Below, one piece after another: positions 1 through 5,781 of a DNA stretch of 8,406 nucleotides. The position numbers and the translations under genes were made by a program. Numbering within the stretch: position 1 is the stretch's first letter; the number at the start of each line of letters is the position of its first letter. Below the pieces are notes generated by a model. The model ran no database searches. It had not been told where the DNA came from and was given only the letters and a program-made list of their open reading frames with translations. The DNA comes from a virus (lineage: Duplodnaviria > Heunggongvirae > Uroviricota > Caudoviricetes): the IMG/VR virus record IMGVR_UViG_3300000301_000148. The stretch is one strand, 5' to 3'.

Positions 1-1041
1 ATGAAACACCAAAAAGTTAATATAGTCAAAAAGAATGGTGAATTCTCTTTAAGCCTACTTAGCTTCAAGTTGGTTCATATAAAAAGAACACAAGAGAATA
101 AGAGAAGCATTAATTATTACTGGAATAGCAGGACAAAAGAAGTCATATGTGGCTCAGGTTCATTGCGCAATCATCACAGCATACCATCTATCGCCCATTT
201 ATTTAATTATAAGAAAAAAACATGCGATCTAAGTCGCGAAGAGATACAACTTGGCGACTCCGTATGTGTTTTATTTAATACAACAGCAGCCCTTTTTCTT
301 TTTGGTTCAATTGTTGGTGTAGACAAGCTAAAAAAAGAAACTTATTTTCACATATTGCCTCACGACAAAAACTTTCCATTTCAACGCAATCATGTAATCA
401 AAGTAAAGCACCAAAAAGACAACATTTTTCTTTTACGTGACGGAAAAAATGAAAGATATGAATACATGGCAACAAAAAATCTAGTATTTGCAAAATACCA
501 ATACCAAGTTGAATTTGCCGAAATGGTTATTTCATATATCAAAAGTACGCAGCTCATAATAAATTATGTCTCCGACAAAAATAAAACAATTAATGAAAAG
601 ACGATCTTAGAATGCCATAAAGCTCTTTTTGGCCATATTTATGATTGGGCAGGTGAATACAGAAACCATCCCGTTGTTGTTGGAGATAAAGAGCGACCAA
701 CAATGGAACATAATGAAGTCAAAAAATCATTAAAAGCCTGTCTTAGAGGTTGCACAAAAAAAGAACTTAGCAAAATAAATTCTAAAGCAGAGTTAGTTCA
801 TAAACTAGCTACTCTCCATGCAGAAATCGCATGGATCCACCCCTTTCAAGATGGTAATGGTCGTTCAATACGATTATTTCTTCAGATTGTTGCAACTACT
901 ATGGGTTATGAATTTGATATGGAAAAGCTAGATGGAGATGTGCGAAATAAACGTGCGTACCATTATGCTGTAAGACGCGCAATACACGACAGTAACAGAA
1001 ATCTGATTGCCCTTATTTCAAGGGCAATCAAAGAGCTTTAA
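1..1041 (+). CDS. Fic/Doc (Fido) family protein, 346 aa; candidate toxin or anti-phage cargo gene
   Basis: Open frame of 346 codons in DNA of roughly 30% GC (by eye), which is very unlikely by chance. Canonical Fic active-site motif HxFx(D/E)GNGRxxR is present as HPFQDGNGRSIR at aa 280-291 (nt 838-873). I found no intramolecular (S/T)xxxE(G/N) inhibitory motif in the protein. The ORF begins at window position 1 with ATG, so the true start may lie upstream and the N-terminal ~150 aa has no motif I recognise. Confidence 0.8.
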   Translation: MKHQKVNIVKKNGEFSLSLLSFKLVHIKRTQENKRSINYYWNSRTKEVICGSGSLRNHHSIPSIAHLFNYKKKTCDLSREEIQLGDSVCVLFNTTAALFLFGSIVGVDKLKKETYFHILPHDKNFPFQRNHVIKVKHQKDNIFLLRDGKNERYEYMATKNLVFAKYQYQVEFAEMVISYIKSTQLIINYVSDKNKTINEKTILECHKALFGHIYDWAGEYRNHPVVVGDKERPTMEHNEVKKSLKACLRGCTKKELSKINSKAELVHKLATLHAEIAWIHPFQDGNGRSIRLFLQIVATTMGYEFDMEKLDGDVRNKRAYHYAVRRAIHDSNRNLIALISRAIKEL

Positions 1042-1235
1042 GCAACAGCTACTCTGGTCAGAAAACGTGCAGCCTGCGACATTTTAGACCATGAAGTGTT
1101 GGTAATGTGATTACCTTCCAGAGAAAACGAAGCACGCAGGGAACGATTAACACTTTGTTCAAGTTTTGAACGACGAACAGGCTTAGCACCTGCGTGCCCA
1201 CCTCTTACTTGTATCGTGATAACCTTTTTGCTCAT
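1038..1235 (-). CDS. small basic hypothetical protein, 65 aa; contains SxxxEG motif (possible Fic-inhibitory antitoxin-like helix)
   Basis: ATG at 1235..1233 preceded by a weak purine-rich RBS (AGAGAGA); the ORF track also gives a longer form starting at 1265 with no RBS. Codon usage favours CGT/GGT/GCT/GTT. SFSLEG at aa 36-41 (nt 1113-1130) matches the (S/T)xxxE(G/N) motif of Fic antitoxins. Its stop overlaps the Fic stop in convergent orientation (1038-1041). Confidence 0.4.
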   Translation of the reverse strand: MSKKVITIQVRGGHAGAKPVRRSKLEQSVNRSLRASFSLEGNHITNTSWSKMSQAARFLTRVAVA

Positions 1236-1278: not shown

Positions 1279-1295
1279 ATGATAACCATTATCAT
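1279..1295. promoter_or_regulatory. short inverted repeat ATGATAA-cca-TTATCAT in AT-rich spacer upstream of the small ORF
   Basis: 7-bp perfect inverted arms with a 3-nt spacer, read directly from the sequence, lying in the AT-rich region 1236-1418 between the gpA 3' end and the small ORF start. Only a weak operator or promoter candidate. Confidence 0.2.
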
Positions 1296-1395
1296 CTGGA
1301 ATCATCATAGCCGGCTGGCGATTCTACGCCTGATTGTTCATATCTACAACAACTACTTTATACATACAAATCTACTTACCTACCAATAACAGTGT

Positions 1396-4300
1396 TCACA
1401 TCTTCAACTTTTCACCGCNNNNNNNNNNNNNNNNNNNNNNNNNNNNNNNNNNNNNNNNNNNNNNNNNNNNNNNNNNNNNNNNNNNNNNNNNNNNNNNNNN
1501 NCCATCAACTATATACCACCGCCACTCATCAACAACCGGATACGTGAATTTTTTCCCATCATAATTTACGGTCGCGCCACGCGCCAGCGCCTCAAGCTCC
1601 CATCGCTGCGGCCTGATACCGTTCTGAGCAAGGTCAACGCGGATACGGGTAATTTGCATTCTTTCCGACCGGGTCAGTCTGGCCGATGGTGCAATTTCAT
1701 GTGGTTTTAACGGGCTNNNNNNNNNNGGCCAAACATCAGCACCCGGATACATGAATTTTTTCCCGTCATAATTTACGGTCGCGCCACGCGCCAGCGCCTC
1801 AAGTTCCCATCGCTGCGCCCTGATACCGTTCTGAGCAAGGTCAACGCGGATACGGGTAATTTGCATTCGTTCCGACCGGGTCAGTCTGGCCGATGGTGCA
1901 ATTTCATGTGGTTTTAACGGGCTTCCGTTTCTTTGCTGACGATTTGGCATTCTCAGCCCGTGTTTTAATGCGCCCCTGAGCGCCCTCACGACATCCGGGT
2001 CATTCCATTCGATAACACCGTCATCAACCAGATTAAGCACTGCTGCGGCGTGCTCAGAAGGTGTGGGAGCCGGTAACGAAGTATCACCACCGGTGAGTTT
2101 TCCACAGTTATTGACAGGACTCCGAGGCGCGGCGATGCCGCTTTTTAAAGTCAAAGGCTCAACGNNNNNNNNNNNNNNNNNNNNNNNNNNNNNNNNNNNN
2201 NNNNNNNNNNNNNNNNNNNNNNNNNNNNNNNNNNNNNNNNNNNNNNNNNNNNNNNNNNNNNNNNNNNNNNNNNNNNNNNNNNNNNNNNNNNNNNNNNNNN
2301 NNNNNNNNNNNNNNNNNGGCGCGTAAATGCCGACCACTCTCTCGACTTCTTCCTCGTACTCGTTAACGTCATCCGACGGGCTACGGGCGACCCTGACAGT
2401 CTGACAATCGCGCGGGACATTTGCCCCACCCTGCGCGCTGATATACAACGCAAAATCACCACTGTCTGCGGCGGCGCGTGCAGCCTCGACGCGCTCGTCA
2501 AACTCATCAGCAATGCTGACGCCGCGCGGCAATTTGCGTAGTTCACGGTAAGCCCCCATTGTCGGCAGACCAACCGTTTTAAATTGCGGGATGCGCCACG
2601 TTGACGCCCATGCGGTAACAGCCGCCGCAGTGTCTTTCAGCGGCCTGCCGGTATCGTTATCGAGCTGACCATCCAGTGCATAGCCGTCGATGTTTTTTGA
2701 GATGTATTTCGCGATATATCCCGCAGCACCGCCCCGGTTAAGGTGTTTCGCCTGAAAACGGTTTCGCGCGGCTCCTCTTTCGTCGCCATCTTCTTTGAGC
2801 GCATAGCGACGCATGATTTCGATAATCTGGTTACGCTGGCGTGGATTACAAAAAAGCATCATATGCCAGTGCGGCGTTCCGTCGTGGTGTGGCTCGACGA
2901 CTCGCAAACCGTAGACCTGTAAGTCATTATCCTTGANNNNNNNNNNNNNNNNNNNNNNNNNNNNNNNNNNNNNNNNNNNNNNNNNNNNNNNNNNNNNNNN
3001 NNNNNNNNNNNNNNNNATGCCGTGCGCATCAGGCTCCAGATACGGCAGAGATAACGCTGCGCATCCTTTGGATTAAATGCCTCATCATTCCAGCCGTGAT
3101 TAAGCTGGACGGTTTTACTTTCGCCTTTTCCGACCTGACGTGTCGGGTGATACTTTGACGGCGCGGTCAGCGTGATAAACATCCCCACATCACCCTCTGC
3201 GGCGGCGTAACGCTCAATTCCGGCGATGGTGTTCATCAGCTCCATCCGGCGAATTTCAGGATTAGAAATACTGCCCATCACCTTACTGATAAGGTCGATG
3301 CGTTCGCCGGTTTCCCTGTTTTCAAGGTCACACGATTTAAGAAATTCCAGATTTGCCTGGCGGCGNNNNNNNNNNNNNNNNNNNNNNNNNNNNNNNNNNN
3401 NNNNNNNNNNNNNNNNNNNNNNNNNNNNNNNNNNNNNNNNNNNNNNNNNNNNNNNNNNNNNNNNNNNNNNNNNNNNNNNNNNNNNNNNNNNNNNNNNNNN
3501 NNNNNNNNNNNNNNNNNNNAACGCCTCATGCCAGCGCATACGCTGGCCTTTAAGCTGATGAGTCCACCACTCATCGTTAAACAGGCGGGCAATGGCAGAA
3601 TATGCCTGCCTCGTGGTCATCTGCCCTTTACGGTATTTTTTCCAGTAGAGAGGGGAAATATTGAAAGCACGTGCAGCGCCAGCAACATGACCATACAGGT
3701 GATCCTGCGCCTCATCCGTAAACAGCGATTCTTTTTCGCCATGCGCATCCACCCAGGCATCGCAGAGTTCCTCATACATCATGAAAAGCTGCGATGAGAT
3801 ACGGGCGGCAAACTTTTTCAGCTNNNNNNNNNNCGGTATTTTTTCCAGTAGAGCGGGGAAATATTGAAAGCACGTGCAGCGCCAGCAACATGACCATACA
3901 GGTGAGCCTGCGCCTCATCCGTAAACAGTGATTCTTTTTCGCCATGCGCATCCACCCAGGCATCGCTGAGTTCCTCATACATCATGAAAAGCTGCGATGA
4001 GATACGGGCAGCAAACTTTTTCAGCTCCTTGTCATTCATTCCCGGCAGGCGCGCATAGTGGTCACGCTCTGCCAGAAACAGCAACGACGCGTCGGTGTTC
4101 ATTTCATGGCGCTGATTAACGCGCTCAATGCGCGGCCATAAACGACGCTGAAAAGTGGATGTGAGGAAATAAAACCCGTGCACCGGGCTTTTATTGCGCC
4201 GGATGTAGTCATAGCGTGAAGTAAACAGCGAACGCAAAAAGTAAGGCAGGCGGTTAATCGTGGATAAAACACCTTGCACCTGACACATCTCGTCACGTGT

Positions 4301-5214: not shown

Positions 5215-5781
5215 CAAAGCACCTCCCCGCGAGACAATCCGATGTTGTGAAATTTTTCCGACTCCTGACTGAGCAGCTCGACTATCTCCACGCGGGATNN
5301 NNNNNNNNTCAGCTCCTTTTATCGTTAAGTTTCCTGGATACATCAGCGCAATAACTGGCGAGTTCTGTCGTTAATTTTGTCAGTTCATCCACTGAGGAAA
5401 TTTGCTTGTGGAACACAGCGCGTTTAACAAGTAAATTGACCACATCAGACAGGAGGTTTNNNNNNNNNNNNNNNNNNNNNNNNNNNNNNNNNNNNNNNNN
5501 NNNNNNNNNNNNNNNNNNNNNNNNNNNNNNNNNNNNNNNNNNNNNNNNNNNNNNNNNNNNNNNNNNNNNATAACAGATTCAGTTATGTCGCGTTTTTCTT
5601 TATCAAGACAAAGTTGAATAAGAGACAAATCACCATTTTCCATAACGGCGATTTTTAAGGCGTTATTCAGTAATACAACTGAATGAGAACAGGACATCAA
5701 AGTACCTCCCCGCGAGACAATCCGATATTGTGAAATTTTTCCGACTCCTGACTGAGCAGCTCGACTATCTCCACGCGGGAT
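4913..5781. repeat. duplicated segment pair flanking a 10-N gap (4913-5298 and 5309-5781; second copy contains a 110-N run)
   Basis: Copies align end to end (both begin with TCAGCTCCTTTT and end with CTCCACGCGGGAT) with roughly 93% identity by eye. The 110-N run in copy 2 corresponds to only about 21 nt in copy 1, so gap lengths are not faithful. Confidence 0.8.

What the first reader, a model, noticed from the sequence alone, without database searches (positions are those of the whole stretch)
1038..1235. Convergent 65-aa basic ORF with an SxxxEG motif: possible Fic antitoxin
The small ORF encodes SFSLEG (nt 1113-1130), an exact match to the (S/T)xxxE(G/N) inhibitory-helix motif by which FicA/VbhA-type antitoxins block the Fic ATP-binding site. 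The adjacent Fic protein itself lacks such a motif. My rough estimate is that a 65-aa random protein would contain this pattern only a few percent of the time, so it is suggestive but not decisive. Against the idea: the two genes are convergent with overlapping stop codons rather than co-directional, which is unusual for a toxin-antitoxin pair, and the ORF could instead be a conserved phage gene downstream of gpA.
Basis: partly seen in the sequence, partly recalled or inferred. Interest (0 to 1): 0.55.

Follow-up and report, generated by a model that had tools for sequence, protein, structure and literature searches.

The report
Convergent antitoxin for phage-borne Fic toxin
The 65-residue gene lying tail-to-tail with a phage-borne Fic enzyme is very probably that enzyme's own inhibitor, supplying in trans the glutamate-bearing helix that blocks its ATP site; it defines an unannotated family of Fic antitoxins that travels with its toxin between phages, plasmids and genomic islands.

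Summary
A 65-aa ORF lies at 1038-1235 on the minus strand, SFSLEG is at 1113-1130, and its stop codon shares a TTAA with the stop of a 346-aa Fic gene (1-1041, +).

The motif alone arises by chance in about 4% of proteins this size. Comparative evidence makes the antitoxin reading strong:
- Every full-length relative of this Fic examined (30-100% identity) has a convergent 62-72 aa ORF at its 3' end carrying S-x-x-(L/I)-E-G. Contexts were P2-like phages, a lambdoid prophage, integrative elements and islands, and small and large plasmids.
- 44 of 45 small-protein clusters keep the motif. S, E and G are three of only six invariant residues.
- The one exception is a Photorhabdus orphan whose Fic gene has been deleted.
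- The Fic partners keep a canonical active site and have no inhibitory motif of their own. Their fold is closest to class I toxins solved with antitoxins (VbhT, EcFicT, Fic-1).
- Of 382 phage records with a P2-type gpA match, only 11 have the ORF, the same 11 that have this Fic.

The small protein is not detectably homologous to VbhA or FicA. A convergent Fic antitoxin has one precedent (FicY/AntY). No binding or toxicity data exist. Verdict: a new variant of a known kind, of moderate interest.

The parts
1..1041 (+). Fic-family protein, 346 aa (putative AMP-transferase toxin). An N-terminal beta-rich domain (aa 1-146) is followed by the FIC domain (aa 167-342).
   Evidence: Pfam Fic E=6e-17. 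AF2 model pLDDT 89.5. Best fold matches are the class I toxins VbhT, EcFicT and Fic-1. RefSeq annotates it as WP_021522894 'Fic family protein'.
838..873 (+). Fic active-site motif HPFQDGNGRSIR (aa 280-291). It matches the canonical HxFx(D/E)GNGRxxR, including the second arginine.
   Evidence: Regex on the translation. The motif is kept in all partners examined. H280-R288 and R291 are invariant in 27 homologs.
1038..1235 (-). 65-aa small protein, the proposed trans-acting inhibitor (class I-type antitoxin). It has a beta-hairpin (aa 5-21), helix 22-39, an E40-G41 cap, and helix 46-64.
   Evidence: pLDDT 83. dN/dS 0.09-0.25. RefSeq WP_016236400 'hypothetical protein'. PHROG 9918, unknown function.
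1113..1130 (-). SFSLEG, matching the (S/T)xxxE(G/N) inhibitory-helix motif (S36, E40, G41).
   Evidence: S36, E40 and G41 are three of six invariant positions in 38 clusters. The motif is present in 44 of 45 clusters. It lies at the C-terminal end of the predicted helix 22-39.
1038..1041 (.). TTAA, the shared and overlapping stop codons of the two convergent genes.
   Evidence: Sequence. The same 4-nt overlap is seen in most loci. Other loci have gaps of 15-45 nt or overlaps of 8-41 nt.
1002..1032 (-). 14-bp hairpin followed by a T-rich tail, 6 nt after the small gene's stop and inside the last codons of Fic. Probably the terminator or 3' stabiliser of the small-gene transcript.
   Evidence: Terminator-like hit. 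The fold is -19 to -22 kcal/mol in the E. coli, Salmonella and Serratia copies and weaker in Dickeya (-12.6 for the 60 nt). Paired synonymous changes keep the stem: ATT/GCA to ATC/GCG in L024, and GCC/AGG to GCT/AGA in L013.
1321..1349 (-). Promoter-like element for the small gene, TTGTAG-17 nt-TAGAAT.
   Evidence: It was read by eye and matches 8 of 12 consensus positions, below the scanner threshold. Both hexamers are invariant in 7 P2-clade loci while the 17-nt spacer varies in sequence. Similarity between unrelated contexts begins at the -35 element. Dickeya has TTGAAA-17-TATACT at the same place.
1280..1294 (-). Inverted repeat TGATAA-nnn-TTATCA between the promoter-like element and the start codon. 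Possibly an operator.
   Evidence: Partly conserved in the P2-clade alignment. Its function is inferred only.
1396..1398 (-). Stop codon of the P2-type replication gene A. It marks the phage-side edge of the gpA-gpQ ('TO') hotspot that holds the cassette.
   Evidence: Hotspot definition from PMC9122126.

Best explanation
The 65-aa protein is the cognate inhibitor, supplied in trans, of the adjacent Fic AMP-transferase. Together they form a class I-type Fic toxin-antitoxin pair.

Proposed mechanism (inferred). The long helix (aa 22-39) docks on the FIC core. Ser36, Glu40 and Gly41 at its C-terminal end then sit over the nucleotide pocket. Glu40 occupies the position the ATP gamma-phosphate must take and pairs with the second arginine of the Fic motif (R291). 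ATP therefore binds in a non-productive orientation and AMP transfer is blocked. The beta-hairpin and the second helix, with invariant W49, K51 and L59, would add binding surface.

Gene organisation (shown). The two genes form a self-contained cassette of about 1.25-1.4 kb. It is arranged tail-to-tail. The small gene has its own promoter-like element, and a hairpin embedded in the Fic 3' end.

Mobility (shown) and role (inferred). The cassette moves as a unit between the P2 gpA-gpQ defence hotspot, other prophages, integrative elements and plasmids. Its likely role there is an addiction or abortive-infection module. If the small protein is lost or titrated, Fic would be released to AMPylate an essential target. 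By analogy with FicT, VbhT and FicY, that target may be GyrB or ParE.
For: (1) Co-occurrence, small ORF to Fic. All 12 first loci have both genes in the same geometry. This includes L011, where gpA is only 34% identical but Fic is 76% and the small protein 83% identical. Distant members (30-50% identity) sit next to a Fic in a Dickeya P2-like prophage, a Celerinatantimonas lambdoid-type prophage, a Klebsiella integrative element, a Yersinia prophage end beside Kiwa, a Mixta island, an E. albertii P2 hotspot and a Serratia gpA remnant.

(2) Co-occurrence, Fic to small ORF. Every locus that holds the 3' end of a full-length Fic relative has the partner (L116 is cut by the contig end). None of roughly 90 loci that share only the Fic domain do. 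The apparent exception, L030 from Proteus, has a diverged convergent 66-aa ORF with SMYLEG. So do Rep_3 plasmids and metagenome contigs (SLYLEG, SIFLEG, SFALEG) and five further plasmids.

(3) Motif conservation. S36, E40 and G41 are 3 of 6 invariant positions, and 44 of 45 clusters keep the motif.

(4) Natural loss series in Photorhabdus at one chromosomal site. With Fic intact or split, SFSLEG is kept (L026, L025, L023). With Fic deleted, it reads SFALAG (L018).

(6) The AF2 model puts E40-G41 at the C-terminal cap of a long helix. hhalign places its best local alignment to both FicA and VbhA on the motif, in register. The local sequence ...AS..LEG... is shared with PDB-verified FicA and VbhA.

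(7) Mechanism and motif definition come from PMC3667792.

(8) A convergent Fic antitoxin is biochemically proven for FicY/AntY.

(9) Similarity between copies in unrelated contexts ends at the edges of the two-gene cassette.
Against: There is no direct evidence of binding, inhibition or Fic toxicity. A complex model could not be computed.

There is no significant sequence or fold similarity to any known antitoxin. The family matches no VbhA or YhfG model in Pfam, NCBIfam or PDB sequence searches. hhalign P values are only 0.03-0.04. Foldseek finds nothing below E=2.

The loss-of-glutamate orphan is a single lineage.

Genomic linkage shows functional coupling, not the direction of the effect. 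The partner could in principle be an activator, an adaptor or a regulator. The target of the Fic and the role of its N-terminal domain are unknown.
Confidence: 0.8

Rival explanations
1. The small protein is a true partner of Fic, but the complex is not simply 'off'. Glu40 would convert the enzyme into a deAMPylase. The pair would then work as a reversible AMPylation/deAMPylation switch whose balance depends on the partner ratio, as reported for Fic-1-AntF and for glutamate-bearing class II/III Fic enzymes.
Against: Nothing in the sequence separates pure inhibition from deAMPylation. This extends the main explanation and is not an alternative to the physical pairing.
Confidence: 0.2
2. The small protein is linked to Fic but acts in another way, for example as a transcriptional regulator of the cassette, a chaperone or stability factor, an adaptor to the N-terminal domain, or a sensor. 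The S-x-x-x-E-G conservation would then reflect some other structural need.
For: Its overall fold (beta-hairpin plus two helices) differs from the VbhA/FicA fold. EcSoFic's downstream AS1 may act through stability and not through an inhibitory helix. An inverted repeat lies upstream of the gene. The P2-clade protein is very basic.
Against: Charge flips from +10 to -10 between clades, which argues against a conserved nucleic-acid-binding role. The invariant residues are the three that define the inhibitory motif, at a helix C-terminus. The partner Fic lacks its own inhibitory helix, although about 90% of canonical Fic proteins have one in cis or in trans. The glutamate is lost only where Fic is gone.
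Confidence: 0.1
3. The ORF is an ordinary conserved P2-family gene downstream of gpA that happens to lie next to a Fic moron.
For: In this window it follows gpA on the same strand.
Against: 382 phage records have a P2-type gpA match (163 cover at least 80% of it), but only 11 have the ORF, and those are the 11 that carry this Fic. The ORF also occurs with Fic outside P2 phages, in a lambdoid-type prophage, integrative elements and plasmids. In L011 it stays with Fic although gpA is only 34% identical.
Confidence: 0.01
4. The ORF is a chance open frame, antisense to nothing functional, and the motif is coincidental.
For: The motif is expected by chance in about 4% of 65-aa proteins. The ORF is not annotated in some records (FSL SP-004, R18C).
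Against: dN/dS is 0.09-0.25 and this is the only open frame of six. The ORF is conserved to about 30% identity with the motif invariant. The AF2 model is confident.
Confidence: 0.01

Closest known systems
Class I Fic toxin-antitoxin pairs: VbhT/VbhA (Bartonella) and EcFicT/EcFicA (YhfG), as classified by Engel et al. 2012 and Goepfert et al. 2013 (PMC3667792)
   Different: The antitoxin gene is downstream and convergent, not upstream and co-directional. No sequence homology is detectable outside about 16 residues around the motif. The predicted fold is a beta-hairpin plus two helices, not an all-helical wrap. The toxin has an extra 160-aa N-terminal beta-barrel domain.
FicY/AntY of Yersinia pseudotuberculosis YPIII (Lu et al. 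2020, PMC7479194)
   Same: The antitoxin is encoded by a downstream, convergently transcribed ORF under an independent promoter. It carries an inhibitory-helix motif. AntY blocks FicY AMPylation of ParE in vitro.
   Different: FicY is a single-domain FicT-type protein of about 24 kDa (catalytic His141), whereas this Fic is 346 aa (His280). AntY's motif is S22TAIET27, which ends in T and lies nearer the N-terminus. No member of the present family has it. I could not obtain the AntY sequence for a direct comparison.
EcSoFic-AS1 (Wu et al. 2025, PMC12249575) and SoFic single-gene defence
   Same: A Fic enzyme in defence islands, toxic when expressed alone, is neutralised by a small protein encoded downstream.
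   Different: SoFic is class II. It has its own N-terminal inhibitory helix, a Fic_N domain and a SoFic-type C-terminal domain. AS1 is 47 aa and its mechanism is unknown, possibly acting through stability. No homology to the present pair was seen beyond the Fic core (PADLOC SoFic E=1.7e-13 over aa 172-294).
tin/old cargo of the phage P2 'TO' region, the gpA-gpQ defence hotspot (Rousset et al. 2022, PMC9122126)
   Same: The cassette sits at the same locus in the phage genome. The arrangement 'Fic + hypothetical' (WP_021522894 + WP_016236400) is listed in that paper's supplementary table of hotspot contents.
   Different: The proteins are unrelated. I found no test of this arrangement for defence in that paper's main text.

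Membership tests
Class I Fic toxin-antitoxin system (functional class) | Fic protein with the canonical HxFx(D/E)GN(G/K)RxxR active-site motif | tested here: met
   The window has HPFQDGNGRSIR. All 20 partner Fic proteins checked have the motif, and it is invariant in 27 homologs.
Class I Fic toxin-antitoxin system (functional class) | No inhibitory (S/T)xxxE(G/N) helix within the Fic polypeptide itself | tested here: met
   There is no hit in the window protein. The only hit elsewhere is a non-conserved SFLKEN at residue 7 in two near-identical copies. The plasmid copies have none.
Class I Fic toxin-antitoxin system (functional class) | A separate small protein encoded next to the Fic gene carries (S/T)xxxE(G/N) | tested here: met
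   SFSLEG in the window. 44 of 45 clusters keep the motif, as do all diverged partners.
Class I Fic toxin-antitoxin system (functional class) | The motif lies on an alpha-helix, with the glutamate at its C-terminal end | tested here: met
   In the AF2 model (pLDDT 83) helix 22-39 is followed by E40-G41. This is a prediction, not a solved structure.
Class I Fic toxin-antitoxin system (functional class) | Antitoxin gene immediately upstream of the toxin and co-transcribed with it (the usual layout) | tested here: not met
   The gene is convergent and downstream in every locus. This layout is typical but not obligatory, since FicY/AntY is convergent.
Class I Fic toxin-antitoxin system (functional class) | The small protein binds Fic and blocks AMPylation; Fic alone is toxic; an E-to-G change relieves inhibition | not testable with these tools
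   This needs experiments or a multimer structure prediction.
VbhA / FicA (YhfG) antitoxin protein families (homology) | Detectable sequence similarity to VbhA or YhfG | tested here: not met
   Neither the protein nor the family profile matches any VbhA or YhfG entry in Pfam, NCBIfam or PDB sequence searches. hhalign aligns only 16-17 residues at the motif, with P 0.03-0.04 and probability below 2%.
VbhA / FicA (YhfG) antitoxin protein families (homology) | Same overall fold | tested here: not met
   The model has a beta-hairpin plus two helices. Foldseek against the PDB gives no hit below E=2, and neither VbhA nor FicA appears.
FicY/AntY-type convergent module | Antitoxin ORF downstream of the Fic gene and convergent with it | tested here: met
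   precedent in PMC7479194.
FicY/AntY-type convergent module | Homology of the toxin and antitoxin to FicY and AntY | tested here: inconclusive
   FicY is about 24 kDa with His141, against 346 aa with His280 here. No sequence in the present family contains STAIET. The AntY sequence (ACA66912) was not available to align.
SoFic (class II) defence Fic | Fic_N domain with an intrinsic inhibitory helix, plus a SoFic-type C-terminal domain | tested here: not met
   Pfam finds only the Fic core at aa 197-296. NCBIfam SoFic scores 15 bits against a cut-off of 550. The N-terminal half is a beta-barrel domain.
Doc/Phd (Fic-fold kinase toxin) | Doc-type motif and a score above the DOC_P1 family threshold | tested here: not met
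   TIGR01550 scores 15.9 bits against a cut-off of 38.65. The active site is of the GNGR (AMPylase) type.
Cargo of the P2 gpA-gpQ defence hotspot | Located between the replication gene A and the portal gene Q of a P2-like phage | tested here: met
   Annotated regions of vB_YpM_22 and an E. coli prophage. Hotspot definition and listing in PMC9122126.
Cargo of the P2 gpA-gpQ defence hotspot | Confers resistance to other phages | not testable with these tools
   Only indirect hints exist. PADLOC matches the candidate family PDC-S04 (E=3e-33) and SoFic over the Fic domain. Neighbours include Kiwa and other conflict systems.

The most novel reading that the evidence does not exclude
The cassette is an anti-phage abortive-infection system with an unusual control logic. 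Toxin and antitoxin are transcribed towards each other from separate promoters, and the antitoxin's terminator is embedded in the toxin's last codons. In P2-like phages the antitoxin gene also lies downstream of the early replication operon and is co-oriented with it. The carrier phage's own lytic programme could therefore raise antitoxin levels by read-through and protect itself, whereas an invading phage that shuts down host transcription or degrades the small protein would release Fic. The N-terminal tandem SH3/Tudor-like domain, absent from known FicT toxins, would select the target or sense the invader. The glutamate-bearing complex might also act as a deAMPylase that resets the system.
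Probability: 0.25. Interest if true: 0.65.

Novelty: new variant of a known kind. Interest (0 to 1): 0.45.

Why it matters
This assigns a specific, testable function to a protein family that every database searched calls 'hypothetical' (no Pfam or NCBIfam model above threshold; PHROG 9918 has unknown function). Some phage records do not annotate the gene at all.

It shows that trans-inhibition of Fic enzymes by a glutamate-bearing helix has been built on a third, apparently unrelated small-protein scaffold.

It shows that the tail-to-tail gene layout, previously reported for one Yersinia pair, is the fixed architecture of a whole mobile family.

The cassette sits in the P2 gpA-gpQ defence hotspot, next to Kiwa and other conflict systems, and on small plasmids. 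It is therefore a good candidate for a toxin-antitoxin-type phage-defence or addiction module.

Practically, phage records that label the enzyme 'VbhT' without noticing its partner are incomplete. Cloning the Fic gene without the small ORF is likely to fail.

Tried and rejected
Searches that found nothing useful:
- Sequence searches of the small protein against Pfam, NCBIfam, PADLOC and PDB found nothing meaningful.
- A 13-sequence family profile against PDB found only noise.
- Foldseek of the small-protein model against PDB gave no hit below E=2.
- The first genome-contig scan with the small-protein alignment returned no confirmed locus. I used the Fic alignment instead.
- The sigma-70 scanner found no promoter for the small gene at its threshold. 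The candidate element came from reading the sequence and from conservation.

Jobs that could not be run:
- A complex-style AF2 prediction was prepared from a paired alignment of Fic, a (GGGGS)x6 linker and the small protein.
- The AntY sequence could not be retrieved for a direct comparison.

Ideas considered and dropped:
- 'Conserved P2 gene downstream of gpA' was rejected.
- 'Basic, hence DNA-binding, antitoxin' was rejected as a family property by the charge flip. That analysis also showed no simple charge complementarity between partners.
- Two large repeat proteins (P0018, P0020) and P0021 hit residues 18-60 several times in the exhaustive search. I judged these repeat-driven similarity and did not follow them up.
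Full report
**What is in the window**

The window is the early-gene end of a P2-like (Peduoviridae) phage or prophage. Bases 1-1400 are 99.6-100% identical to Yersinia phage vB_YpM_22, phage R18C, Salmonella phage STYP1 and prophages in 12 of 5,426 complete E. coli genomes.

In those records a Fic gene and a 198-nt 'hypothetical protein' gene lie between the replication gene A and the portal gene Q. This is the P2 'TO' region, now recognised as a defence hotspot (PMC9122126; PMC6823313).

In window coordinates the features are as follows:
- Fic is 1..1041 (+), 346 aa.
- The small ORF is 1038..1235 (-), 65 aa.
- gpA ends at 1396 (-).

**Checking the observation**

- the 65-aa ORF;
- SFSLEG at nt 1113-1130;
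- basic composition (net +10);
- convergent orientation, with the stops sharing TTAA at 1038-1041;
- no such motif in the Fic protein.

The motif [ST]xxxE[GN] turns up in 4.1% of shuffles of this protein. By itself the motif is therefore only a hint.

The ORF is a real gene. It is the only open frame of six over that stretch. dN/dS between P2-clade copies is mostly 0.09-0.25. It survives intact in Salmonella phage FSL SP-004, where the region is only about 76% identical and the ORF is not even annotated.

**The small-protein family**

The family is small and unannotated.
- A word-indexed search of 5.8 billion proteins found 15 clusters, all at least 65% identical.
- An exhaustive HMMER scan of 1.84 billion representatives found eight hits.
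- A profile search raised the family to 45 clusters, nearly all from Enterobacterales.
- No cluster matches a Pfam or NCBIfam model above threshold. PHROG 9918 is 'unknown function'.

In an alignment of 38 clusters only six positions are invariant: S36, E40, G41, W49, K51 and L59. Three of them are the residues that define the Fic inhibitory-helix motif. 44 of 45 clusters have the motif: SFEIEG, SFSLEG, SLEIEG, SFALEG or SFSIEG.

**Linkage to Fic, from the small ORF**

In all 12 loci first collected, the small ORF and Fic have the same tail-to-tail geometry. In L011 gpA is only 34% identical while Fic is 76% and the small protein 83% identical. The pair therefore moves independently of the phage backbone.

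Distant members (30-50% identity) lie next to a Fic gene in many other settings:

| Setting | Locus |
|---|---|
| Dickeya P2-like prophage | L013 |
| Lambdoid-type prophage of Celerinatantimonas | L015 |
| Klebsiella integrative element | L016 |
| End of a Yersinia prophage, beside Kiwa | L020 |
| Mixta island | L021 |
| E. albertii P2 hotspot | L022 |
| Serratia gpA remnant | L024 |

**Linkage to Fic, from the Fic gene**

I fetched 105 loci encoding relatives of this Fic and scanned them with an HMM of the small family. Every locus that holds the 3' end of a full-length relative has the small ORF immediately downstream on the opposite strand. The one exception was L030; L116 is cut off by the contig end. 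None of roughly 90 loci that share only the generic Fic domain has it.

L030 (Proteus) proved to have a convergent 66-aa ORF too diverged for the HMM, with SMYLEG. The same holds elsewhere in that clade:
- small Rep_3 plasmids and metagenome contigs, with SLYLEG and SIFLEG;
- the most distant Fic relative, at 30% identity, with SFALEG;
- five further plasmids, including IncI and a Vibrio conjugative plasmid, with SFEIEG, SMYLEG, SFELEG and SLYLEG.

In the curated phage collection, 382 records have a P2-type gpA match. Only 11 have the small ORF, and they are the 11 that have this Fic's N-terminal domain.

**A natural loss series**

At one chromosomal site in Photorhabdus, between an ABC transporter and the moa operon, four states exist:
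- Fic intact, with its partner (L026);
- Fic split into two fragments, with the partner keeping SFSLEG (L025 and L023);
- Fic deleted, with the orphan small ORF reading SFALAG (L018).

L018 supplies the only cluster in the family without the glutamate. It is one lineage. Still, it is what one expects if the glutamate matters only in the presence of Fic.

**The Fic partner**

All partners keep HPFx(D/E)GNGRxxR, and none has a conserved intrinsic inhibitory motif. According to Goepfert et al., about 90% of canonical Fic proteins are held in check by such a helix. It is supplied either in trans (class I) or in cis (classes II and III). The glutamate sits where the ATP gamma-phosphate must go (PMC3667792).

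**The small protein's structure, and what it is not**

The AF2 model (pLDDT 83) shows a beta-hairpin (5-21), a long helix (22-39), and then E40-G41 at the helix C-terminus. A loop and a second helix (46-64) follow.

The sequences of FicA/YhfG and VbhA, which I verified against the PDB, read NRNFQASRRLEGV and ARNALASQRLEGL. The window protein reads NRSLRASFSLEGN. hhalign puts its best local alignment on this stretch, in register, for both proteins. However, the P values are 0.03-0.04 and the probability is below 2%. Nothing else aligns, and the predicted fold finds no PDB neighbour.

So the protein works like a class I antitoxin but is not a demonstrable member of the VbhA or FicA families. Either it is a very remote relative, or the motif arose independently on another scaffold.

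Net charge swings from +10 in the P2 clade to about -10 in the plasmid clade, while Fic is always basic. Basic charge, and by implication DNA binding, is therefore not a conserved feature.

**Architecture of the cassette**

Pairwise BLAST between copies in unrelated contexts shows where similarity begins and ends. It starts 0-130 nt upstream of the small ORF and ends 0-90 nt beyond the Fic start codon. The mobile unit is therefore this two-gene cassette of 1.25-1.4 kb.

Upstream of the small ORF, TTGTAG-17-TAGAAT (1349-1321, minus strand) is invariant in seven P2-clade loci while the spacer sequence varies. Similarity starts at the -35 hexamer. Dickeya has TTGAAA-17-TATACT at the same position. 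I read this as the small gene's own promoter. That is an inference, and the element scores below the scanner's threshold.

Six nucleotides after the small gene's stop, inside the last codons of Fic, lies a 14-bp hairpin with a T-rich tail (1002-1032, minus strand). It is kept in related copies by paired synonymous changes in the Fic codons, seen in L024 and L013. This looks like the terminator of the small-gene transcript.

The stop-codon overlap is usually the 4-nt TTAA. It ranges from gaps of 15-45 nt to a 41-nt overlap in other clades.

**Comparison with what is known**

It has one experimentally validated precedent. Yersinia pseudotuberculosis FicY is inhibited in vitro, in a dose-dependent way, by AntY. 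AntY is encoded by a downstream convergent ORF with an STAIET motif, and FicY AMPylates ParE on Tyr106 (PMC7479194). FicY is a single-domain protein of about 24 kDa. No member of the present family carries STAIET, so this looks like a different family with the same layout. I could not obtain the AntY sequence to test this directly.

EcSoFic-AS1 is another defence Fic with a small downstream neutraliser. There the Fic is class II and the mechanism is unknown.

Rousset et al. list 'Fic + hypothetical' (WP_021522894 + WP_016236400) among P2 hotspot arrangements in a supplementary table, without comment in the main text. The R18C paper calls the Fic ORF a moron of unknown function and does not mention the small ORF. 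I found no paper that identifies this small protein as an antitoxin.

**Verdict**

The 65-aa ORF is very probably the trans-acting inhibitor of the neighbouring Fic enzyme (confidence about 0.8).

What is shown:
- the ORF is a real gene under purifying selection;
- linkage is complete in both directions across at least five kinds of mobile element;
- the three motif residues are invariant;
- the motif lies at a predicted helix C-terminus;
- the Fic is class I-like and lacks its own inhibitory helix;
- the two genes form a self-contained cassette.

What is inferred:
- physical binding, insertion of the glutamate into the pocket, and Fic toxicity;
- the identity of the target;
- the promoter and terminator assignments;
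- any role in phage defence. For this last point the only hints are the hotspot location, PADLOC similarity to PDC-S04 and SoFic, and defence-system neighbours.

It is a new variant of a known kind. The mechanism is familiar. The differences are an unannotated antitoxin family on a different scaffold, a fixed tail-to-tail layout, and a two-domain toxin.

Noticed in passing
window 1419-1501, 1717-1726, 2165-2317, 2937-3016, 3366-3519, 3824-3833, 5299-5308, 5460-5569; repeats 1521-1716/1728-1923, 3631-3823/3834-4026, 5087-5298/5570-5781, 4916-5065/5310-5459: The window contains eight runs of N. Three of them are 10-N junctions flanked by direct repeats 91-97% identical to each other. These duplicate parts of gpA and other early genes, so the window is about 1.2 kb longer than the same region in complete genomes. 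It looks like a scaffolding or assembly artefact that joined two variant copies of a P2-like prophage. It does not touch the Fic/small-ORF pair.
   Followed up: partly
[not shown]
   Followed up: partly
window 1002-1032 (-): A 14-bp hairpin lies inside the last codons of Fic (encoding ...LIALISRAI...). It is preserved by paired synonymous substitutions in related copies. This implies selection on RNA or DNA structure superimposed on coding sequence. It is probably the terminator of the convergent small gene.
   Followed up: partly
window 1280-1294 and 1321-1349 (-): A promoter-like element, TTGTAG-17-TAGAAT, has invariant hexamers and a variable spacer. An inverted repeat, TGATAA-nnn-TTATCA, lies in the predicted 5' leader of the small gene and may be an operator.
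   Followed up: partly
L026, L025, L023, L018 (Photorhabdus, same chromosomal site): These loci form a decay series of the cassette: Fic intact, then Fic split into two ORFs, then Fic deleted. The orphan small ORF loses its glutamate (SFALAG) only in the last state.
   Followed up: yes
L016 5438-6514 (-); L020 5009-6216 (-); L022 5134-6216 (+): The cassette often sits beside other conflict systems. These include a second, SoFic-type Fic (Fic_N + Fic + SoFic-like_C) in Klebsiella, KwaA/KwaB (Kiwa) in Yersinia, and CTD9/MC5/SMC-like genes in E. albertii.
   Followed up: no
L131 2818-3507: On one small Rep_3 plasmid contig the small ORF is present twice, as identical 67-aa copies. A 72-aa Fic fragment lies between them, suggesting a local tandem duplication of the cassette's 3' end.
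   Followed up: no
P0018 (1611 aa), P0020 (1379 aa), P0021 (230 aa): Three repeat proteins from the exhaustive search match residues 18-60 of the small protein in 4-10 separate stretches. The P0021 repeat unit reads ...ATSFDLEGNILTKTSY.... This is probably repeat-driven similarity, but the shared 'SFxLEGN' core is curious.
   Followed up: no
NC_021774.1 (FSL SP-004) 27441-27635; NC_049461.1 / MN016939.1 (R18C) 30173-30367: The small ORF is not annotated in these deposited phage genomes. Several records name the Fic gene 'vbhT', although it is only 21-24% identical to VbhT over the FIC domain.
   Followed up: yes
small proteins of L030, L130, L132, L136 compared with the window: The partner protein is strongly acidic in the plasmid/Proteus clade (net -6 to -10, pI about 4.1-4.6). 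It is basic elsewhere, most strongly in the window copy (net +3 to +10; pI 12 in the window copy). Fic is basic throughout, so there is no simple charge-complementarity rule.
   Followed up: partly
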